Assembly (NCBI GenBank): GCA_977017645.1
Contig: OZ360247.1
Location: 14,012,001-14,076,000 of the forward strand
Direction: 5' to 3'
Length of the DNA stretch: 64,000 nucleotides
From: Torpedo marmorata
Taxonomy: Eukaryota
Shown: positions 48,985 to 63,832 of the stretch, piece after piece
Position numbering within the stretch: the first letter of the stretch is position 1
Layout: each line of letters opens with the position of its first letter
The notes under the pieces: model-generated
The model's input: the letters and a program-made list of their open reading frames with translations, nothing else
Databases searched by the model: none
What the model was told of the DNA's origin: nothing
Position numbers and translations under genes: made by a program

Positions 48985-51900
48985 CTAAAAACAAAATGGA
49001 AATTGGTTTGAAAAGTAACTCAAATAACTTGCTAGTACTGGAAAACTTATACAACAGAGAAATTAAAGGGTTTGTGAGCGACATCGTTATCAATAATAGT
49101 TTGAAAGTACTATTAATATGGAAAAATATTCTTTTCTTTTTCAATATTTTTATTGGTTTCATCAAATAAATGTTACATAGGTACATGACAATAAAATAAA
49201 ATATTAACAAATCTAATGTAGTAGTAAAAATGGTATTGAAACCTACGTTACATTGAAAAGAAGTAAAAAAAAACCAAAAAAAAACCACTATACTAATTAT
49301 CTAGTTATCAATCCCCTCCCGTTCGGAGGCTACTGGCTTAACACAAACAGTCCACTACTACTACTAATAATAAAAAAGATGGTAAACAATGGGGTAAAAA
49401 ACCAGAAACTAATTAATATTACAAATTTTGAAAATAATTAAGAAAGGAACCCCATAAAGAAACAAAGTTAAAATTCACTTCAGTAGTGGAACATCTAATT
49501 TTTTCCAAAGTCAAACATGCCATCATATCAGACAACCATTGATTATGAGTGGGAGGGACAGCATCTTTCCATCTCATTAATATGGCCCTTCTAGCGATAA
49601 GGGAGCCGAGGGCAACGACATGGGATTGTAAAGCAGTCAATATCAAACCTGTTGGCCCACTTATTCCAAAGAGAGCAAGAAAAGGATTTGGAGTCAAAGT
49701 AATATTAAGAACTAAAGACAAGGTACGAAATACCCCTTCCCAAAAATTAGAAAGAGAAGGACATAACCAAAACATATGATACAGTGTACCTTTATCACAT
49801 TTAGATGAGAGTTTAGAATAGAATTTAGCCAATTGGTCTTTGGAATAGTGGGCCCGGTGTACTATCTTAAATTGTATTAATGAATGTCTAGCACAAAGAG
49901 AGGATGAATGCACTCGTTTCAAAATAGAGTTCCATGTAATTTCAGAAAATAGCTGTTGAAAATCTTGTTCCCATAGTTTTTTAATTCTGTCCAGGAAACT
50001 ATCCCTAGAATTTAGAAGTAATTCATAAAGGCCAGATACCACCCCTTTATAAATCATCCCTATCATATTAGGCTCCAGGTCTTCAGGGAGCTTCAAAATT
50101 AAAGAATTCAAAAAGCTCCTAACCTGTAAATAATGAAAAAAGTGATGTCTAGGTATTATAAATTTGATGGATAATTGTTCAAAAGAGGCAAGATTTTGGT
50201 CAGTAAAGATATCTAAAAAGGATTGGATACCTAATTTGACCAATGATGATAACCGATATCTTGAACCGAAGGTAAAAAGAAGGAATTACCTAAAATAGGA
50301 CTGATTAATAAGAATCTATGGGTCCCAAAATGTTTCCTAAATTGAAACCAGATTCTCAATGTATGTCTAACAACAAAATTATCAGTTAATTTGGAGGCCA
50401 AAAAAGGTAAAGGTGCTCCAAGTATCAAAAGAAGAGAATGCTTTTTGGTGGATTTAATTTCTAAATTAATCCATCTTGAAGCACCTAGATTTCCCCAGTA
50501 ATATTAGCTGCTCCCGTTCTTTTTAATATTCTGAAGGAAAACTTTTTTAAGACGGAAGTGCTTATTTTTCCATATAAAAGAAGATATGATAGAATTCAAT
50601 GAAGTGGAGACTCCAGCTGGTGGCCGATGGAGTAACACGTTTGTAGTGTTGCTCTTGAACATCTAACCTTTTTCCCACTATGTAACAGCTATTTTAATCT
50701 GTAAAAGCTGTTCTTTCTGGGAATTTCTTTTAATTTCCCTCTAAATGGCAGAGTTAAGAAGTGGAAGGACCGTTCCTGAACAGATACATGGGAAAAATCG
50801 AAGAAAAGGTTCTAAATCAGAAGCTTCACAATCTGTTGAAGAAATTCTCATAAGATTGGAAGCTAAAATTGATAATTTGAACTTATGTTATGAGGCACTG
50901 GATCAGAAAATTACAAAGTTTCAAGGGCGTTTTGATGATTTAGAAAAACAATATAACAAGCTTTCAACAGACTATCAAGATCGTATTGACTTTGGAAAAA
51001 AGAGTTGATGCCTTTAAAGAACATTTTCGAGAAACTGCAGCTGATTTGCAAAAATATAAGCATAAAGCTATCGATCTAGATAGCAGAAACTGGTGACAGA
51101 ATTTACGCACTTTGGACTTCCTGAAGATATTGAAGTTCTAACTCGATTAAATTTTTCATAGACATGCTGTTTGAGTTGTTTAAAGAAGTGCTGAGTAAAC
51201 CTCCAATTTTGGATCAGGCACATCGTGCTCTGAGGTCAAATCCTCCACCCGAAGTTAAACCTCAACCTGTTATTCTCTGCCTTCATTATTTTCAAACAAA
51301 GGAAGCTATAATCAGAGAGGCTCATAGACGAGGTATGCTGAAATTTTGTGATATCTCTATTCGTATTGTGGAAGATTACTGCCCTGAAGTCTTGGCAGAG
51401 AGAATGAAATTTAAAGAAGTCATGACTGAACTCTATCAAAAACTACTTTGCCCTTCTCTTCATTTCCCTGCACGCCTGAAGATTTTCCCTAAGAATGGTC
51501 CCCCCAAATGGTTTACTACTACAGATCAAGCTTGGAAAAATCTGGAAGATAGTACATCCACTCCGTAGCAATCTACATGAACTGTTTCCTGGCTATGAGT
51601 TGTCATGGCTGAAGATATTTTTGGATTCACTCCTTTCTTTCTGTTTTCTCTCTTTCCATATTCTTTTGCTTAAATAAAAAGTAATAGGGGATTTCTCCCT
51701 TTTTTTATATATATAGTTTAACTTTACAGATTGTTACCTTTGGTTATTTTTCTTATTAATTAATTAACGGTCGATATTTTACTGGGTTTGTAAAATGGCG
51801 ATCTTTTTTTTTTCAGCCTTGTAATTTCTAGACAGTTAAACTTGTTTGATGGCTTGCTACGCAGAACTCAGTTTGTTTTGTCTATAATGTGTGGGAACGA

Positions 51901-52273
51901 ACATAACTTTGTAATTCTTATTTGGAGCGCTCCCAGCTGGAGATAGGGGTTAAGGGATGAGTAGCTTTAGCTTGCTGCCCTCTTATTGGGTAGATTTCAG
52001 GCTTTGTGGGGTGGGGGTGGGGTTAGTTAGTATAAGTTTTTTTTTCCTGAGCAGCTTTGAGTGCTTGTGGAATTTATCACTTGTTCCTTTGTTATGGTTC
52101 ATGCTGTGCTCTATCACCCTCTTTAGAATGTGCTTGTACATGCGCGACAAGCTTTCCTTTTTAATTTTATTAATCTTAATATTAATATGGCTATAAATAC
52201 ATTTAATTTTATTTCTTGGAATTTGAACGGCCTTAACCATCCTATTAAACGCAAAAAGGTATTTAATATGATT

Positions 52274-54504
52274 TTTTTTTTAATTTAAAAAAAATATTTT
52301 ATTTAAAATTTTAAATCACAAAATACATAAAATAAAATATAAAATTATCAAAATACATGTGATACATTTTCACCCCCCCCTCCCTCCCTCCCCTCCCTAA
52401 CCCTCCCACACCCCTGACTCACACCGGCTCACCGACGAGGTGCAGTCGAGTCGCACAGTACACTGTACGGCCCAGTCGACAACCACGCCGAAAGCACGGG
52501 GAGCCCATACTAATCTACTAAAATAAATAAAAATAAAAAAAATTTTAAAAAAGAAAGAAAAAGATAGAGTAAGGAGAATGTCAATCTGAAAAGAACATCT
52601 ATAAACTGATTTTATTGTGGAGGATAGGTTCGCCAGTCAGATCCGATGTCTAGAGATCTTCAAATCCTTAAACCAACAGTTTTTATATATGGGCTCCATA
52701 TTTTCAAAAATAAATGATATTTATTACGTAAATTATAAGTAATTTTTTCAAGTGGTATACATGAACGAAGTTCTGCATGCCATCTCTCTACCCTAAATCT
52801 ACATCAGATTTCCATGTAATAGCAATGCATTTCTTAGAAACAGCTAAAGCAATTCGCAAAAATTCTATTTGATACATATTTAATTTCATCTTAATACTAA
52901 TTCTTTTAATATCTCCAAACAAAAATATCATAGGGTCCAATGGAAGTGTAATACTCAATACTTTATCTAAAAAGTTTTTAACTTTCAACCAAAAATCATA
53001 TATCTTTGGACAAAACCATGTCGAGTGTACAAAAGAACCTTCCTCTCTATTACATCTAAAACATAAACCTGATAATGTCGAATTAAATTTCTTTAATTTT
53101 TTAGGCGTAAAATATAATTGATGAAAAAAATTATATTGAACTAATCTATATCTAACGTTAATAATCTTCGTCATACTTAATTTACATAATTCTTTCCAAT
53201 GTTCTTCATCTATTGTTACATTCAAATCTGATTCCCATTTTAATCTTGATTTATGAATTCCTACTTTAGGGATTTTTCTCTGAAACAATCTATACATTTG
53301 AGAAATAAATTTATTTACACCTCCATTAGTAACTAATAATTCTAGTTCACTCTGTCTTGGTAGAGTCAAACTATAACCCAACTTCCCAACTAAAAATGCT
53401 CTAATTTGATAAGAAGCAAAAAGTGTATTATTCAATACATCAAACTTATCTTTCATTCTTTGAAAAGTAATAAATTTACTAGCTTCAAAACAATAATTTA
53501 TTTTTTTAATTCCCTTTTGGAACCAAATTTTAAATCAACAATAAATGGAATAAGTTTATTTTGATATAAAGGTATTTTTCAAGAAATCGACCCTTTCCCT
53601 CCTATCTCACTATCCACTCTATTCCATATTTCTAAAAAATGTTTAAAAATAGGAGAATTCTTCCCTCTTGTTAATAATAATTTAGAATTCCATTTATAAA
53701 TAACTTCTTCTTTCAAATCTTCTCCTATATTATTTAATTCTATTCTAATCCAAGCAGAAGATTTACCTAAATCAAACATTTCATTAACAAATTTTAATTG
53801 AGCTGCTTTATAGTAATTTTGAAAATTAGGAAGTTGTAAACCACCCATTTCATAATTCCAAGTTAATTTCTCCATATTTACTCTAGCCAACTTTCCTTTC
53901 CACAAAAATTTCCTAATAATTAAATTTAAATCCTTAAAGAATTTCAAAGGAATTTCGTAAGGAATTGATTGGAAAAGATATTGAACTCTTGGAAAGACAT
54001 TCATTTTAATACAGTTTACCCTTCCTATTAAAATTATAGGTAAATCCTTCCAACTTTCTAAATCTTTTTTAATTTTCGTAAATAATGGTAGATAATTTAA
54101 TTTATATAAATTAGCTAATTTTGTATCAATCTTTATTCCCAGATATTTAATTCCTTCCTTTGACCATTTAAATTGAGTAATTTCTTTACATTTACTATAA
54201 TCCCCTTGTGTTAATGCCATAATTTCACTTTTATCAGAATTAATCTTATAACCAGATATTTCCCCATATTCTTTCAATAAAACATTCAATTGTAATAAAG
54301 AAGTAATAGGGTTTTTCATGTAAATCAATACATCATCTGCAAATAAACTAATTTTATGTTCTTCTCTTCCAACTTTAATACCTACAATCTTAATATCTTG
54401 TCTAATTAATTCTGCCAAAGGTTCTATTGCTAAAATAAACAATGCTGGCGACAAGGGACATCCCTGTCTAGTTGACCTAGTCAAAGAAAATTTTGAAGAA
54501 ATTT
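52274..54504 (-). mobile_element. L1 element D (5'-truncated, second family), nested in B's endonuclease
   Basis: RT (RQGCPLSP, FADD) and C-terminus (CFRC..HSTWFCP), G-rich 3'UTR, poly(A). 16-bp TSD GGTATTTAATATGATT (52258-73 / 54505-20). Confidence 0.92.
52415..52509 (-). other. 95-nt CpG-rich hairpin-forming insert, probable 28S rRNA D2 fragment
   Basis: Absent from the related L1 C 3'UTR. 10 CpG in 95 nt. Similar to recalled vertebrate 28S D2 sequence (GGCGCGGCTGTCGACCGGGGCGGACTGTCCTCAGTGCGCCCCGACCGC). Confidence 0.55.
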
Positions 54505-56706
54505 GGTATTTAATATGATTAAAAGGTTTCAGGCCAATATTATCTTTGCGCAGGAGATGCACATTCGTAAGAAGGACGAATTTCGTTTTTTAAAATTTTG
54601 GAAGGGTTTACAATTCCACTCCCTTTCTCAAGCTAAAGTTAGAGGTGTCTCGATTTTTATTGATTCCACGGTTCCATTTGTATATTTTAATACAATATCT
54701 GATGTAACAGGAATATTTTTAATAGTTACTGGTTCATTGGGAAATAAGAAGGTAGTAATGGTTAATATATATGCTCCTAATATCGACTGTCCCGAATTTT
54801 TTCAAAAGGTTTTTAATTCCCAACCTAATTTGAATGATTATGGGTGGAGATTTTACTTCCGCCATTCAGATGCTTCCAAATAAATCAGCTAGTTATATTA
54901 ACGCTTTCCTGCTGGACTATGGTTTAGTCGATATATGGAGATTTTTACACCCGAAGGAAAAGGAATTTTCTTTCTTTTCTCATGTATACCATAAGTACTC
55001 TAGAATAGATTATTTTTTTATTGATACACGATTGGTGCCTTCGATATGGAAATGTGAATACGACACAATCGCTGTTTCTGATCATGCACCTTTAAAGCTT
55101 TCTGTTGAAATCTCCGGTGTTACTTCCGGAGTTCAACAATGGCTGTTCAATTCTACTCTGCTTCAGGATGAGAAATTCATTAGCTTCATTAAAGATCAGA
55201 TTTCTTTCTTTTCTCAGACAAATTCCACTGAAGGAATGTTCAATCTGGTAATTTGGGATGCACTTAAAGCATTTCTATGAGGACAAATAATTTCTTATTC
55301 TGCTGGATTTAGTAAACATACCAAAAGTGAACTGACATTACTTGCTAATAGAATGAACGAGATTGACAGATTATATTCTATGACACCTAGTATGGACCTT
55401 TATAAAGAAAGAGTAGAATTTCAAACTCAGCATGACTTATTATTAACTTACCCCATCGAGAATCAACTACTTAAACTTAAATCTTAATTTTATGTACATG
55501 GAGAGAAATCAGGTAAGCTGTTAGCTGGTCAGCTGAAGGTAGCTGCAGCTAAAAGACAAATTACAAACATAAGTAAGAAGGATGGAAACTTTACTTTTGA
55601 TCATGCTGAAATTAATAAAGTGTTTCAGGAATTTTATTCAGATCTATACAAATCTGAATTTCCTGATAATTCTATTTTAATGGATACATTTTTGCAACGG
55701 TTGAATATTCCTAAAATATCATCAGAAGATCAAAACTTGTTGGAAGCTCCAATTTCAGAGTCGGAAGTTTCCCAAGCTATATCTTCTCTCCAATCTGGCA
55801 AGGCCTCAGGTCCGGATGGCTTTACGGTGGAATTTTAAAAATCATTTACTAATTTACTTACTCCTCAACTATGTAAAGTATTTGAAAATTCAGTTTCTTC
55901 TGGGACCTTACCGGCAACCTTTTATGAAGCATCAATTTCATTGATTCCTAAAAAAGATAAAGATCTAACTGAATGTACTTCCTATAGGCCAATTTCTTTG
56001 TTGAATGTAGATTTTAAGGTTCTTTCTAAGATTCTAGCCAGCAAGTTTGAAATTATTCTTCGTTCTGTTATATCTAAAGATCAGACTGGATTTATTAAAA
56101 ATTGATATTCACATTTTAACATCCGCAGATTAATGAACATTATTTATTCCCCTTCGGACACAATTCCAGAATGTGTAGTTTCTCTAGATGCTGAAAAGGC
56201 TTTTGACAGAGTGGAGTGGAACTATTTATTTGAAACATTAAGGAGATTTAATTTTGGTATGGGCTTTATATCATGGATTAAATTGATCTATAGTACCCAC
56301 TGAGATATGGTAGTTACTAATAATAACAAATCCTCTTCATTTAGGTTGCTTAGGGGAACTAGACAGGGATGTCCCCTTAGCCCCTTGCTATTTGATCTAG
56401 CTTTAGAACCTCCGGCAATAGCCCTTAGAGACACTCATGAGGTTCAAGGGATTGTCAGAGACGGAGTAACTCATAAGGTTTCTTTGCATGCAGATGACTT
56501 ATTAGTTTATATTTCAGATCCCGAAAGATCTATCCCAGTTATGTTATCTGTGTTTTCTCAGTTCAGATCTTTCTCTGGATATAAATTAAACCTTCATAAA
56601 AGTGAATTTTTTCCGATTAATATGCAGGTCCCTATCTACACTCACGTTCCATTTAAAATTGCTTGAGATAATTTCACATACTTGGGGGTTAAAATTACTA
56701 AAAGAT

Positions 56707-57071
56707 AACATTAAAACCAAACAGGTTATTTTTTATAAAATTTGGCATCCTTATTTAGATTATTTGGGGTCAGGATAAATTAAATTAAAGAAGATTTGCT
56801 ATTAATTTGCTTTGGGTTCCTTCACGTGATAAGCCCTGTTGCTGGGAAGCCTTAGAGTTTTTCATTCTTTTATATATTTGAAATTAGTAATTATATAAAC
56901 ATTGTCGACCATTTGTTTTGTTTAGTTTTTTTTTCCTTGGGGGGGAGGTTTGGGGTAATTGTTTTTTTTATTATATATGTTACTTTTATTGTATTACTAT
57001 ATAATGTGATAACTGCTTTTGAAGTATTTTGTTTTATTGTTTGTTAAAAATGAAAATAAAATATTTTAAAA
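56707..57071 (+). mobile_element. L1 element E (short 3' fragment), nested in B's RT region
   Basis: C-terminal ..FYKIWHPYLDYLG, 3'UTR and A-tail. TSD AAAATTA(CTA/ATG)AAAGAT (56691-706 / 57072-87). B's frame YLGVKITKR|FKDLF resumes after it. Confidence 0.8.
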
Positions 57072-59077
57072 AAAATTAATGAAAGATTTAAAGATTTATT
57101 TAAACTCAATTTTTCTCCTCTATTCGAGTATGTGAGATTGTCTTTTTCTAGATGGTCTCCTTTATCATTATCTTTAATAGGTCGTATTAATGCAGTTAAA
57201 ATGATAATATTACCTAAGTTTTTATACTTATTTCAAGCGATTTCAGTTTTCATCCCGAAATCTTTTTTTAATAATATTGACTCAAAAGTTTCTTCCTTTA
57301 TTTGGAAGAACAAAAACCCTAGCATTAGTAAATTTCATTTACAAAAATTGAAAAAAGATTGAGGTATGGCCTTACCTAATTTTAGATTTTATTATTGTGC
57401 TGTTAATATTCGCTAACTTTTTGGATTTTGGATTTTTTATTCTGATAAATTGGATCGTCCATTATGGACAGATTTAGAATTGAAATCTATACAGCAGTAT
57501 TCAGTGGCCTCTTTATTAGGTGCCTCTCTTCCATTTAGCTTTTACAAGATCAATAGGAATATATCTAATCCAATACTCAAACATATATTGCGAATATGGT
57601 TCCAATTTAGGAAATTTTTTTATTCAAAAAACTTTGTCTTATCTTGTGCTATCTCTCATAATTTTTTTTTTTGACCATCAATAATTGATCAATCTTTCTC
57701 TATATGGAAAATCAAAGGTATTGTTTCTTTTGCAAATTTATTTAAGGAAGGTTGCTTAATGTCTTTTGAACAACTTGCAAGTAAATATGACTTACCAAAT
57801 ACTCATTTTTTTTAGATATTTACAGATTAGAAATTTCTTAAATACCATGTTACTGGATTTTCCATTTGTATATCCACCAGATTTAGTTGATCATATTTTT
57901 CAATTGAATCCTTCTCAGAAAGGATTAATTGGAATTATATATGATAGATTATTAAAATTACGTCCAGTACTTCATGATAAGATTAAAAAGTCTTGGGAAC
58001 TGGAACTTGCAAGACCCTTATCTGAGGATCTATGGGACAAGATTTTTAAATTGGTAAATACATCTTCTATATGTGCCCGACATTCATTAATCCAATTCAA
58101 AGTGGTGCATCGTGTTCACATGTCCAAAGATAAATTGGCTAGAATTTTTTCTAATATTACCCCTATTTATGACAGATGCAAATCTGAAATTGCTACATTG
58201 ACACATATGTTTTGGTCTTGTTCATCCTTAGAAAACTATTGGAAAGAATTTTTTAATATCTTTGCAACTATACTCCAGGTGGAACTATGACCTAATCCAA
58301 TAACTGCTCTTTTCGGGGTTATTGACCCAGACATAGGGAGTTTTTCTGTACCTGTTCAATGGGTTGTGGCTTTCTCTACATTGTTGGCTAGAAGAGCCAT
58401 CCTATTCAAATGGAAAGACTCTAGACCTCCAACAGTGTTTCAATGGTTTTCTTATATTATGTCTTGTTTAAGCTTGGAAAAAATTAGATATCATGCATTT
58501 GATTCATTGGTGAAATTTGAAGTTACATGGCGCCCTTTTATGTCTCATTTTTAATTCATATGATGTAAATGTTTCTAATGTGATTAGATGTATTTACTCT
58601 TCCAGATGAGATATAGTCTTACCTTTGTTTTTTGATTTACGGTAGGAACCAAAAACTATAAAATATATGTAACCCTCAGGATAAGCTGCTCGGCTGTTTT
58701 TTGTTTTGATAGTTGTTTCTTTTTTTTTGTTAGAGTAGGTTAGGTGGGGTGTTTTTTTATATAATACTTTTGATAGTTTTTTTTTCATTTTCACCCATTG
58801 CAGTGGAGGGGGGACCAAGTTTATACTGTTTGAAGTTTTATCTTAATATATATACATATGTGATATTGTATTTTCAGTTTCGTTCCCTTTTCTTCATTGT
58901 ATTGTATTTCTTATAAAAACCAATAAAAAAGATTGAAAAAGAAAGAATCCAATGAATCAAAAAAGGATTTGGGATCAAAAACAGGTACAGCTTGAAAAAT
59001 ATATAAAAATTTAGGAAGGATATTCATCTTGAAAACATTGACGCGTCCAATTAATGTCATCGAAAGAGGGGACCACT

Positions 59078-59817
59078 AAATTGAAGAAATTTAATCCAGC
59101 GTTATCAGATATGTGTTTTAGATGTAAAACTGAAATAGGATCTTTTGTACATTGTACATGGTCATGTTCAAAAATTCAAGATTTTTGGTTGAAAGTTAAG
59201 AATTTTTTAGAAAGAATTTTTAGTGTTGAAATTACAATGGACCCTATGTTATTTTTATTTGGAGATATTAAAAACTTTAGTATTAGACATAAATTGAATA
59301 TGTATCAAGTAGAATTTTTACGTATAGTATTAGCAGTTTCGAAAAAATGTATAGCTATTACTTGGAAATCGGATGTTGATTTAAATCTAGAACGATGGCA
59401 TGCAGAGTTACGGTCATGTATACCATTGGAAAAAATTACTTATAATTTACGAAATAAATATCATTCTTTTTTGAAAATTTGGGGCCCATATACGAGGATT
59501 ATGGGTTTAACATTGTGAACTCTCTGGATATTAGACCTACCGGCGAAATAACCTCTAAGATATACTAGTTTTTTAAGTTTATTGACTCCTCGCTCTATCT
59601 TTCTATCTCTTTTTTTTTCTTTTTTTCTTTTACTATTATTATTTTATTATATCTTAATTAGATTAGGGGGTATAGGGGTTAGGGAGGGGAGGGTGGGACG
59701 AGGGGGGGAGAAAATGTAATCGCATGTATTTTTTAAAAATTATATGCAAATTATTTTATGTAATGTGTGATTTAAAAACTTAAATAAAATATTTAAAAAA
59801 ATAAATAAAAAAAAAAA
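59078..59817 (+). mobile_element. L1 element C (3' fragment, same family as D), nested in A
   Basis: C-terminus highly similar to D's, poly(A), and 16-bp TSD GAAAGAGGGGACCACT (59062-77 / 59818-33). Confidence 0.92.
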
Positions 59818-62810
59818 GAAAGAGGGGACCACTGTGTCAAGGACTTCTTGACATGACTCAATAAGGTAAGAAAATTTTCTTTAAACAAATTATTGAATTT
59901 CTTGGTAATAGTAATACCTAGATAGTTGAACTGATTTTTAGCTATTTTAAAAGGAATAGAGGAATCTAAAGAGCAGGTAGAACTCAAAACGAACAGTTTA
60001 CTCTTCTGCAAATTCAATTTATATCCTGAAAATTGCCCGAATTGATAAAGAAGTGATAAAATAGATGGCATCGATCGGTCAGGATTCGATATATACAATA
60101 AAAGATCATCTGCGTAAAGAGACACCTTATGAACACTTCCTGCTCTTGTGATTCCTGAGATATCAGCTGATTGCCGAAAAGCCACTGCCAGAGGTTCTAA
60201 AGCCAAATTAAATAATAATGGGCTTAAAGGACATCCCTGTCTGGTACCACGATAAAACTTAAAAGGTTTAGATTTAATTGAGTTAGTAAAGATTGAAGCT
60301 GTAGGAGATAAATATATCAGTTTAATCCAATTTATAAATTGGGGACCAAAGTTAAATTTATCTAACACACTAAATAAGTATTCCCATTCTACTCTATCAA
60401 AGGCTTTTTCGGCATCTAAAGAAATAATACATTCAGAGGACGAAACTATAGCAGAATAAAGAATATCTAACAAACGACGGATATTAAATTGTGAGTAACG
60501 TCCCTCATAAACCCAGTTTGATCCTCAGAAATGACTAGAGGTATGATATTCTCTAACCTACGAGCTAAAATCTTAGATAGTATCTTAGTATCAATATTTA
60601 AGAGGGAAATTGGTCGGTAGGAGGAACAGTCTAATGGGTCCTTATTCTTTTTAGCAATAAGAGAAATTGAGGCTTCATAAAAAGTTTCTGGCAACTTCCC
60701 ACTAACTAAGGATTGAGTAAAGACAGAATCCAAATGGGGTATCAGTAAATGGGAAAATGATTTATAAAACTCCGCTCAGAGATAGGCTTTTCCAGCTTTA
60801 ATTTATTCCCTGAAGAAACTGTAGGAATAGTCAAACTATCCAGGAATTGCTGTATAGAAGTTCGGTCTTTGATCGAATCAGAGCTGTACAACTTAGAATA
60901 AAACTGAGAGAAAATGTCATTTATTTCAACATGATCATTAGTAATCTTACCATTGTCTCTACGAATCTCAGTAATAATCCTTTTAGCTGTATAATTTTTA
61001 ATTTGGCTAGCTAAAAATTTTCCAGCCTTTTCTCCATGCACGTAGAACTTAGATTTACTCTTTAAAAGTTGGGTCTGTATAGGGTAAGTAAGAAGCAAGT
61101 CGTGTTTAGTTTTAAGTTCGACCCTTCTTTTAAAAAGCTCAGGTTTCGGAGTTAAGGCATATTGTTGGTCAATACACTTCAGCTGATTGGCCAAATCATC
61201 TCTCTCAGAATTAACCTTCTTTTTAACGTTAGCCATAAATGAAATTATTTGACCTCTGACATAAGCTTTAAAAGCATCCCAGATTACTAAAATGGAAAGC
61301 TCCGGAGAGGAGTTTTTACTAAAAAAAAGGTGATTTGATCTTTCATGAATTTCAAAAAATCAGGGTCCTATAATAAAAAGGGTATTCAACCACCACTGTT
61401 TAGTAATTCTAGGTAAATCCAGGATATTAATAGAAAAAAATCACTGGAGAGTGGTCAGAAATGAGTATGCTTTCGTAAGAACAAAAGTCAACAGAAGAAA
61501 TTAATTGTTGGTCCATAAGAAAGTAATCAATATGTGAATATGTATGGTGGACCTTAGAGAAAAAAGAGAATTCTTTATCATCAGGATGGAGAAATCTCCA
61601 AACGTCAATAACACCAGATTGTAACATAAAAGAATTTATAAGTATAGCTGACTTATTTAAATTAACAATTTTATGAGACGAGCAGTCAAGTACTGGGTCA
61701 AGCCAACAGTTTAAGCCGCCATCTAATATCAAAGAATACATATTCAAATCCGGTAAAAGAGAAAAGAGGTGTTCAAAAAAATTCGGGTCATCAGTATTAG
61801 GACCATAAATGTTAACAAAGACGTAAAGTTTATTATATAGTTTACCGGACAATATAAGGAAACGACCATTAGTGTCGGCGATAAACGGCACCGATTGATC
61901 GATCAAGATTGAAACTCCCCTAGATTTAGCCAAAAATGCTGAGTGAAATTGCTGTCCCTTCCAAAAGTTCAAAAATCGCGAGGTATCAGGTAGACGAAAA
62001 TGTGTTTCTTGTAAGAGAATAATCATATGGAAAAATATTCGATGGTGACATAGAAGTTTGTGGAGTTACTAAAAGAACAGACTTGCTGCCAGCCCATTAG
62101 TCACCCCACTGGTTTATGTTAAAGGAGAAGCAGTCTTGCTAGTGAAAATCAAACTATAGATGCATGTAATTCTAAAGCAAAAACAGAAAATATTGGAAAT
62201 ACTTAATAGGACAAGCTGCATCTTCGACCTGAACTGTGAACTCTGTTTCTCTTCCCACAGATGCAGCGTTACCCACTGAATATTTCCAGATATTTGTTTT
62301 TTTAGTAACCTTGTTAACTTATGATTTTTTTTTGTTTAAGCCTATATTTGATTTTGATACAAAATTTGAAATGTATCTCAGGCAGTTGGCTGATCTATGA
62401 TTGTATCCACTGTACTATAACCTTGAATGATGCAAATGATTGCAGCACTGGAGGGTAAAGCACATACTCCCTTTTAGTAATAATAAAACACCTTGAAACT
62501 AATACAGATTCAGAACACACATCAATAATTTAGTTAAACTCAAAAATTAGCTGTAAAGTTCATTAATTACTGTGTCAAAACGAAGAATGTTTCAGAGATG
62601 TAACATTCCAAGATCCTTAATAGCATTCAGCACCTCAAAGCTTGCCCTTTATATGAAAACAAGAAAAAAGGCAGATGCTGGAAATCTTAAACATAAAGAA
62701 AAAATGCAAGAAAAACTTGGACCCAAAACAGTTCTCTTTTCACAGAAGTTGCTGACTTGCTGAGATTATATGCTATAATTTTTTTTATCTATTTATGTTT
62801 CTTGATCACA

Positions 62811-63832
62811 GGGGCGGCATGGTTGGCGTAGCGGTTAGCACAACGCCTTAACAGCGCCAGCGATTGGGACCAGACCGCGGTTCGAATCCCGCGCTGTCTG
62901 TAAGGAGTTTTTACGTTCTCCCCGTGTCTGCGTGGGTTTCCTCCGGGTGCTCTGGTTTCCTCCCACGTTCCAAAGACATATGGGGTTAGTAGGTTAATTG
63001 ATCACATGGGTGTATTTGGGTGAAGTAAAAAACACAAATGCTGGAGAACTCAGCAGGTCAAACAGTGTCTTTTATGTAGCAAAGGTAGAAATACATAACC
63101 GACGTTTCGGGCTTGAGCCCTTCATCAAAGTATGAGAAAATGCCGGCAGGCGTCCGAACAAAGGAGTGAGGGGGGAAGGGGGATGGCAAAGGCAGGAGAT
63201 GATAGGTGGAGAAAGGAGGGAGGGGACAGCAGCAAAGAGGGGGAGGAGGGATGGCTAGGTAGCTGGAGAAAAATAGGAAGGACAGGTGAGGGGGGAGGGG
63301 AAGGGAACAACAAGCAGGTTTAGTGGAAAGCAGAAAAGTCAATGTTAATGCCATCTGGCTGGAGAGTGCCGAGACGGAATATGAGATGTTGTTCCTCCAA
63401 TTTGCGGGTAGTCTGGGTGGGATAGTACATGAGGCCATGGACAGACATGTGAGTGTGGGAGTGTGACCCGGAATTGAAATGGTTGGCTACTGGGAGGTCG
63501 CTGTTGTTGCGGACGGAGAGGAGGTGCTCAGCAAAGCGGTCTCCCAATCTACGACCGGTCTCTCCAATGTATAGAAAGCCACAAAGGGAGCACCGGATGC
63601 AGTAAATAAGTTCTCTGGATGTACAAGTGAAATGTAGTTTCACTTGGAAGGCCTGTTTGGGGCCCTGGACCGTGGTGAGGGGGGAGGTGTGGGCGCAGGT
63701 GTTGCACCTCCTGCGGGCACAGGGGAAGGTTCCGGGGGTGCGATGGGTGGGGAGGGATGAGTGTATTTGGGTGGCGCAGGTTCGTGGGCTGGAAGGGCCT
63801 GTTACCATGCTATATCTCTAAATTTAAAAATA
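62811..63832 (+). mobile_element. V-SINE interrupted by a Penelope-like element
   Basis: Head and core at 62811-63022. Tail resumes at 63761-63832. Confidence 0.85.
63023..63760 (-). mobile_element. 5'-truncated Penelope-like element: Cys-motif linker, GIY-YIG endonuclease and pLTR with hammerhead (63094-63134)
   Basis: CARRRCNTC..LIYCIRCSLCGFLYIGETGRRLGDRFAEH. 13-bp TSD GTGTATTTGGGTG (63010-22 / 63761-73). Confidence 0.92.

What the first reader, a model, noticed from the sequence alone, without database searches (positions are those of the whole stretch)
52410..52515. Probable 28S rRNA fragment embedded inside an L1 3'UTR (tripartite chimera)
Seen: L1 C reads GATTAG|GGGGT at 59661-71, whereas related L1 D reads GATTAG-[95 nt]-GGGGT. 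The insert has no TSD or poly(A), has 10 CpGs amid very AT-rich DNA, and folds into a long imperfect hairpin (GGCUC/GAGCC, GUCGA/UCGAC, CGUACAGU/ACUGUGCG). From memory it aligns in sense with vertebrate 28S D2, including an apparent compensatory swap (ACTGT..CAGTGCG to ACAGT..CTGTGCG). The rRNA continuation GTCAGGGGT shares GGGGT with the L1 at the junction. Inference: a double template switch by L1 RT (L1 to rRNA to L1), or a subfamily that stably carries an rRNA-derived module. Known L1 chimeras usually place the cellular RNA at the 5' end. Its divergence from the teleost-type 28S I recall raises the possibility of a variant or non-host rRNA source.
Basis: partly seen in the sequence, partly recalled or inferred. 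Interest (0 to 1): 0.7.

Follow-up and report, generated by a model that had tools for sequence, protein, structure and literature searches.

The report
Ribosomal RNA piece riding in L1
A roughly 95-base piece of this animal's own 28S ribosomal RNA sits inside the tail of one branch of its L1 jumping genes and has been copied with it to well over a thousand places, likely after a single capture by the element's copying enzyme, and it likely rides along without a function.

Summary
Real, but a subfamily trait rather than a one-off chimera. Window 52415-52506 (minus strand) is 83/92 identical to this genome's own 28S rRNA (nt ~768-859, variable D2 region), in sense, inside the 3'UTR of a 5'-truncated, TSD-flanked L1. 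The genome has 1,397 exact 5'-junction matches, about 1,900 copies by overlap estimate. One copy is full-length with a TSD. Close sister L1s lacking the segment are more numerous (3,914) and all deeper relatives lack it, so it was gained. The source is the host's rRNA: all nine differences are transitions, and copies form a ladder away from host 28S. The long hairpin is predicted for the isolated piece, but rarely inside the UTR (5 of 53 copies). Most likely one capture by a source L1 (double template jump or break repair), then passive amplification. I found no paper on an rRNA module inherited inside an autonomous L1 (7 searches). This scan noted the same subfamily before on another piece of this genome (e1-9940204).

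The parts
52415..52506 (-). 28S rRNA-derived segment (92 nt; 93 with the junction T at 52507), sense to the L1; matches host 28S nt ~768-859 in the variable D2 region
   Evidence: 83/92 identical to L031:2268-2359. Lies in the unmodelled variable loop of the Rfam LSU model. 28S contigs of run X4 stop matching at 52415 and 52506 and continue with 28S flanks.
52274..54505 (-). L1 copy D, 5'-truncated (about 2.2 kb): 3' part of ORF2, 3'UTR, A-rich tail
   Evidence: RVT_1 E 7.6e-17 and a weak zf-RVT hit, E 7e-4. Matches full-length copy L176 and other copies up to 54505.
54506..54520 (-). 5' copy of the 15-bp target-site duplication of D
   Evidence: The same 15-mer starts at 54520 and 52273 on the minus strand.
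52259..52273 (-). 3' copy of the target-site duplication of D; D interrupts the ORF1-ORF2 region of an older plus-strand L1
52508..52661 (-). Proximal 3'UTR: pyrimidine tract and the TAGATTAGTA motif at the 5' junction
   Evidence: Shared with empty sister elements.
52370..52414 (-). G-rich tract directly 3' of the insert; predicted to pair with the upstream pyrimidine tract
   Evidence: Sequence; folds of D and of empty copy L104.
59078..59817 (+). L1 copy C, a distant and younger insert-free family with a 16-bp TSD (59062-59077 and 59818-59833); comparator only
   Evidence: sequence; 79%; top hits 99-100% identical, none with the insert.

Best explanation
A 92-95-nt piece of the host's own 28S rRNA lies in sense inside the 3'UTR of one L1 lineage and has been copied with it to at least 1,397 places; it was likely captured once, likely when L1 reverse transcriptase jumped from L1 RNA to a 28S fragment and back, and it likely travels as a passenger without function. 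Shown: host-28S origin, position between the TAGATTAGTA motif and the G-tract, gain relative to sister L1s, and amplification by ordinary L1 retrotransposition (5' truncation, TSDs, a full-length copy). Inferred: a single founding event; the double jump (reverse transcription crosses the G-tract, jumps onto a 28S fragment with 0-1 nt pairing, copies about 95 nt, then resumes on the still-hybridised L1 RNA at the same base, giving a full-length new source element); the direction of later decay in the source lineage; and neutrality. Odds: subfamily of host-28S origin about 0.97; double jump as the capture route about 0.5; passenger about 0.8.
For: Host 28S 83/92. 1,397 junction and 1,377 internal exact matches, reversed-pattern controls 0. 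30 of 30 loci found with the internal motif lie in the L1 3'UTR. 30 of 30 top hits of an insert-free ORF2-end query carry the insert, and none of the C-family hits does. 3,914 exact empty-site matches, and all deeper outgroups are empty. TSDs of 9 bp or more in 16 of 49 scored copies against 3 of 245 mismatched pairs. Full-length L176 has a 13-bp TSD, and its ORF2 fragment matches human L1 ORF2p at E 1e-109. No L1 base is lost or duplicated at the junction relative to the empty allele. Sense orientation is what PMC13174262 ties to template switching or RNA ligation (sections read). Double template jumps are proposed in PMC2104539 (abstract). For a passenger: CpG decay continues in the lineage (13 CpG in host, 9-11 in insert types); the long hairpin is rare in UTR context; empty sisters are more numerous.
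Against: The junctions cannot separate a double jump from a DNA-break repair patch, and an exact return to the same L1 base is demanding. The ML tree does not recover filled copies as one clade (3 changes; 0 of 200 bootstrap trees with 1 change). One filled copy (L028) is a mosaic and the nearest empties nest among filled copies, so gain followed by precise loss is not formally excluded for the nearest sisters. Lineage substitutions keep the isolated hairpin's energy better than random transitions (P 0.02-0.07), a weak hint against neutrality. Host-like insert types do not show more private divergence than the majority type in small samples, so the ladder's time order rests on shared states with the empties.
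Confidence: 0.6

Rival explanations
1. DNA-level capture: a 28S cDNA fragment was patched into a double-strand break, or inserted as a tailless retrocopy, in the 3'UTR of an already active source L1, which then propagated it.
For: A blunt junction with 0-1 nt microhomology and no loss of L1 sequence fits end-joining repair as well as a double jump (general knowledge). PMC4476161 (passages) notes that tripartite structures can come from a second insertion into the 3' end of the first.
Against: No TSD, whereas tailless retropseudogenes were defined by 8-35-nt TSDs (PMC5322556 passages). The site (AGTA^GGGG) is not a TT/AAAA endonuclease site. It must hit the few hundred bases of an active source copy. 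No genomic donor with the insert's states plus 28S flanks was found (0 and 1 matches; the one is a decayed rDNA-like copy).
Confidence: 0.3
2. The captured rRNA piece became a functional 3'UTR module (structured RNA that binds rRNA-expansion-segment proteins, stabilises or localises the L1 RNA, or shields it), kept by selection on the source lineage.
For: The isolated fold stays at -40.6 to -44 kcal/mol against host -42.1 despite 8-11 changes; null P 0.020-0.037 for the D type and 0.056-0.069 for the majority type. C26-G67 becomes T-A in the predicted host fold (L148 row). The segment is kept through several successive types and occurs behind sister-type ORF2 in L028, L140 and L169.
Against: In the real UTR the long stem has probability about 0.05 in D and a median of 0.001 in 53 copies, above 0.5 in only 5; only the inner 7-bp stem persists. 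z -1.16. Six founder differences cannot be polarised and may have arisen in 28S itself. C>T changes tolerate wobble pairs, and the test was post hoc. Empty sisters outnumber filled copies.
Confidence: 0.12
3. The source was a non-host or variant rRNA.
For: About seven differences from present host 28S were already fixed when the family expanded. For the two tested directly, only 9 and 4 copies show the host state at positions 76 and 26.
Against: 90% identity to the host's own fast-evolving D2, and all nine differences are transitions. Four assembled 28S copies are identical here. Older-type copies carry host states at positions 32, 64, 67, 72 and 76. The L1 backbone also changed by 9-12 of 451 since the nearest empties, so a CpG-rich insert changing 3-4 times faster is enough.
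Confidence: 0.03
4. A single-locus chimera, or ancestral L1 sequence deleted in copy C.
For: None beyond the two-copy comparison in the window.
Against: 1,397 copies share the junction. All outgroup L1s lack the segment, and it is rRNA.
Confidence: 0.01

Closest known systems
28S rRNA/LINE-1 chimeric insertions in the human genome (Law and Burns, PMC13174262; abstract, results section 11 and first part of Discussion read)
   Same: A 28S fragment of 50-482 nt joined to L1, mostly in sense (83% of 18), attributed to template switching or RNA ligation.
   Different: Those were sought 5' of L1 and are individual insertions. Here the piece is inside the 3'UTR, has L1 on both sides, and was inherited by a source lineage that made more than 1,000 copies.
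Tripartite chimeric retroelements formed by double template jumps (Gogvadze et al., PMC2104539; abstract read)
   Same: Three segments in one TSD-bounded insertion, explained by two template switches.
   Different: These are single pseudogenes made of different transcripts. Here the outer two parts are contiguous pieces of one L1 and the product stayed autonomous.
SINE28 (Longo et al., PMC4994717; abstract read) and other rDNA-derived TE parts (review PMC10946416; passages read)
   Same: 28S-derived sequence amplified by retrotransposition.
   Different: SINE28 is non-autonomous, comes from the 3' end of 28S and is described as Pol III transcribed. This piece is from D2 and was never seen outside the L1 (30 of 30). 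The table passages I saw list no autonomous LINE.
Tailless retropseudogenes (Noll et al., PMC5322556; passages read)
   Same: An RNA fragment inserted without poly(A).
   Different: They are defined by flanking TSDs, which the insert lacks.
Modular turnover of vertebrate L1 UTRs (Boissinot and Sookdeo, PMC5381506; passages read)
   Same: L1 lineages gain novel UTR sequence, and 3'UTR length changes sporadically.
   Different: The paper has no occurrence of 'rRNA'; the source of such gains is identified here.

Membership tests
L1 clade non-LTR retrotransposon (carrier) | ORF2 with APE endonuclease and RT closest to L1 ORF2p | tested here: met
   L176 ORF2 fragment: human L1 ORF2p E 1e-109 against R2 E 1e-15; RVT_1 strong, endonuclease families weak and below cut-off
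L1 clade non-LTR retrotransposon (carrier) | 5' truncation, A-rich tail, TSD | tested here: met
   D has a 15-bp TSD; 16 of 49 copies against 3 of 245 controls; upstream lengths 53-3,951 nt; L176 has a 13-bp TSD
L1 clade non-LTR retrotransposon (carrier) | ORF1 of L1 type upstream of ORF2 | tested here: inconclusive
   A 305-codon frame sits in the ORF1 position of L176, but it has no Pfam or PDB match
28S rRNA/L1 chimera (Law and Burns type) | Host 28S fragment joined to L1 within one TSD pair, usually in sense | tested here: met
28S rRNA/L1 chimera (Law and Burns type) | Fragment 5' of a truncated L1, formed at that insertion | tested here: not met
   The fragment is internal to the 3'UTR and shared by 1,397 loci
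SINE28 | Stand-alone non-autonomous element from the 28S 3' end | tested here: not met
   From 28S nt ~768-859; 30 of 30 sampled copies are inside L1
Tailless retropseudogene | 8-35-nt TSD around the RNA fragment | tested here: not met
   Filled and empty alleles show no duplication
Double template-switch product | Formed in one reverse-transcription event | not testable with these tools
   The junctions fit it, but fit break repair equally well

The most novel reading that the evidence does not exclude
An autonomous vertebrate L1 lineage domesticated a ribosomal expansion-segment fragment as a working 3'UTR module, kept its fold through successive source elements and passed it to a second ORF2 backbone by recombination: rRNA mimicry used by a retrotransposon.
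Probability: 0.12. Interest if true: 0.8.

Novelty: new variant of a known kind. Interest (0 to 1): 0.45.

Why it matters
It shows that an L1-cellular RNA chimera need not be a dead end: the capture happened inside a source element, left it mobile, and founded a lineage of about 1,400-1,900 copies. That gives a sourced example of how L1 3'UTRs gain new sequence. Filled and empty sister elements of similar age are a natural pair for testing what a 3'UTR insert does. In practice, dispersed 28S-like pieces can disturb rDNA copy estimates, rRNA read filters and repeat annotation in this genome. Without evidence of function it is a neat evolutionary record rather than a new mechanism.

Tried and rejected
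An Rfam scan of window 51500-53500 found no rRNA (only Vax2os1_3 at E 6.6), because the model does not cover this variable loop. Capture of 'exactly one closed hairpin' is rejected as evidence: 13% of 741 28S 95-mers and 20.5% of 375 D2 95-mers close their ends likewise, and in 28S context the long stem is not favoured. Fold tests starting from L193 are discarded because L193 carries five private changes. The per-position table for D was offset by 2 nt and is invalid (corrected). The '21 of 44' count is not a recombinant count, because the threshold caught D's private changes. A donor carrying the insert's states with 28S flanks was not found (exact patterns, so absence is not shown). No other 28S capture was seen in the loci held, apart from L185. 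No intact ORF2 was found in a filled element among 60 sampled: the longest frame is 779 aa, and longer frames belong to neighbouring elements. The run search listed no RNA holder, which says nothing about expression. A sequence look-up in earlier findings was blank. Seven literature searches showed no paper on an rRNA piece inherited inside an autonomous L1 3'UTR. Repbase, Dfam, subscription journals and supplements were not seen and could hold such a consensus.

Full report
Observation. The window holds a minus-strand, 5'-truncated L1 (D, 54505-52274) bounded by a 15-bp target-site duplication at 54520-54506 and 52273-52259. It sits inside an older plus-strand L1. In D's 3'UTR, 95 nt with 10 CpG lie between GATTAG and GGGGT, where copy C has none. 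An Rfam scan of the region missed it. I fetched four host 28S genes with the LSU family. Window 52506-52415 aligns in sense to L031:2268-2359 (28S nt about 768-859) at 83 of 92 identities, E 4e-32, score 154 against a shuffle maximum of 63.5. This stretch lies in the variable loop that the Rfam model leaves unmodelled; the names D2 and ES7 for it are recalled. All nine differences are transitions, four at CpG.

It is a subfamily. The segment has 755 candidates in the genome, of which 40 were scored at 98-100%. An exact 20-nt pattern across the 5' junction has 1,397 matches and an internal pattern 1,377, both with reversed controls at 0. On the first 292.6 Mb of contig C1, 71 of 95 junction hits recur among 100 internal hits, which scales to about 1,850-1,970 copies. 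Whether the assembly holds one or two haplotypes is unknown. All 30 loci fetched with the internal pattern have L1 3'UTR on both sides. An insert-free query from D's ORF2 end returned 30 loci, and all 30 carry the insert. The 30 loci of the C family do not: 29 rows scored 25 or less, and the remaining row, cut from the output, is C itself. I took the first 60 junction hits listed on C1 as a less biased sample: 58 carry the segment through to the G-tract (four with short internal deletions) and two break off. They are ordinary retrotransposition products. Upstream lengths run from 53 to 3,951 nt, and TSDs of 9 bp or more occur in 16 of 49 scored copies against 3 of 245 mismatched pairs (11 of the 60 were not scored). 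L176 is full-length (about 5.9 kb) with a 13-bp TSD, and its ORF2 fragment matches human L1 ORF2p at E 1e-109. No sampled filled copy has an intact ORF2. Pairwise identity has a median of 93.6% and a maximum of 97.0% over 1,078 pairs, so the burst is not the most recent; C-family top hits are 99-100% identical. The junctions also exist outside this assembly: contigs of run X3 (coded organism C) cover both at 95-100%, and one 1,230-nt record of X4 (organism D) crosses the 5' junction.

It is a gain. Much closer empty relatives than C exist. Their site reads TAGATTAGTA followed directly by GGGGTGGGAGGG, with 3,914 exact matches. Relative to them the filled allele adds 95 nt (T, 92 nt of 28S, GG; host 28S has C and CG at those ends) with no loss or duplication of L1 bases and at most 1 nt of microhomology. 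In a 75-row tree of ORF2 end and proximal UTR (43 filled, 32 empty), every deeper branch is empty. The tree does not make the filled copies one clade (3 changes; 0 of 200 bootstrap trees with one): L028 is a mosaic and the nearest empties nest among filled copies under that rooting. Diagnostic columns show the empties sharing states with the outgroups where filled copies differ. Backbone majorities run from all empties to nearest empties (3 of 451 apart), to D-type filled (9 from the nearest empties), to the majority filled type (12). I read this as one gain, with precise loss in the nearest sisters not formally excluded.

Source and later history. Insert types form a nested series: L193 has host states at positions 32, 64, 67, 72 and 76; L143, L173, L003 and L029 at 32 and 64; D at 32 and 72; the majority type (41 of 60) at none. 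Host states at 76 and 26 occur in only 9 and 4 copies genome-wide, so about seven changes predate the expansion. No donor with the insert's states and 28S flanks was found. The insert changed about 3-4 times faster than the backbone, as expected for CpG-rich DNA (inference). A non-host source is not needed.

Structure and function. Alone, the piece folds into a long hairpin (-43.1 kcal/mol, z -1.16), as the host segment does (-42.1). Lineage changes keep that energy better than random transitions: P 0.020-0.037 for D and 0.056-0.069 for the majority type. The test is post hoc and partly unpolarised. In the whole UTR the G-tract is predicted to pair with the upstream pyrimidine tract in both filled and empty copies. 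The long insert stem then has probability about 0.05 in D and a median of 0.001 across 53 copies, above 0.5 in 5, while the inner 7-bp stem stays at 0.99. Together with continued CpG loss and the greater number of empty sisters, a passenger is the better reading. The filled 3' end also occurs behind sister-type ORF2 in L028, L140 and L169, which suggests recombination between source lineages.

Mechanism. The most likely route is one reverse-transcription event in which ORF2p crossed the G-tract, jumped to a 28S fragment, copied it and resumed on the same L1 RNA, yielding a full-length source element (inferred). Patching of a break in a source element with 28S cDNA fits the junctions almost as well. 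A tailless retrocopy is disfavoured by the missing TSD (PMC5322556, passages).

Comparison. Human 28S/L1 chimeras (n = 18, 83% sense, sought 5' of L1; PMC13174262), tripartite double-jump pseudogenes (PMC2104539 abstract; PMC4476161 passages) and SINE28 (PMC4994717 abstract; PMC5786205 and PMC10946416 passages) cover the ingredients. The passages I read from the vertebrate L1 survey describe sporadic 3'UTR gains, and the text never mentions rRNA (PMC5381506). Seven searches showed no report of an rRNA piece inherited inside an autonomous L1; repeat databases and supplements were not seen. The window's SINE and Penelope content recalls a cartilaginous fish (from memory, untested). An earlier agent of this scan described the same subfamily from another copy; that is a repeat, not independent support.

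Verdict: observation confirmed, interpretation partly supported, new variant of a known kind, interest 0.45.

Noticed in passing
L028, L140, L169 (switch about 200-385 nt upstream of the position matching window 52560): Filled 3' ends joined to the ORF2 of an older empty sister type, with similar switch regions: a likely recombinant source lineage.
   Followed up: partly
window 49000-62100; L004, L015, L025, L126, L149, L163: L1 copies very often sit inside or beside other L1 copies; the window has a dense nest of at least five.
   Followed up: no
window 52370-52414 and 52520-52580; L104: The 3'UTR has a G-rich tract, described as mostly mammal-specific in PMC5381506, predicted to pair with the upstream pyrimidine tract in both filled and empty copies.
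   Followed up: partly
L185 (G000:C2845:28708-31739): Decayed rDNA-like copy, about 90% identical to L031 over 1.5 kb, with a jump of about 750 nt in the 28S match.
   Followed up: no
L178:660-4526 (+): Uninterrupted 1,289-codon frame with no BLAST match to L176 or the window, upstream of a filled L1; not identified.
   Followed up: no
insert position 17 in 9 of 60 copies (e.g. L130, L136, L149): Host-28S state combined with otherwise majority-type states: back-mutation in a sub-lineage or re-templating.
   Followed up: no
window 63320-63817 (-): Frame resembling a Penelope-type GIY-YIG endonuclease region (recalled motif, not searched).
   Followed up: no
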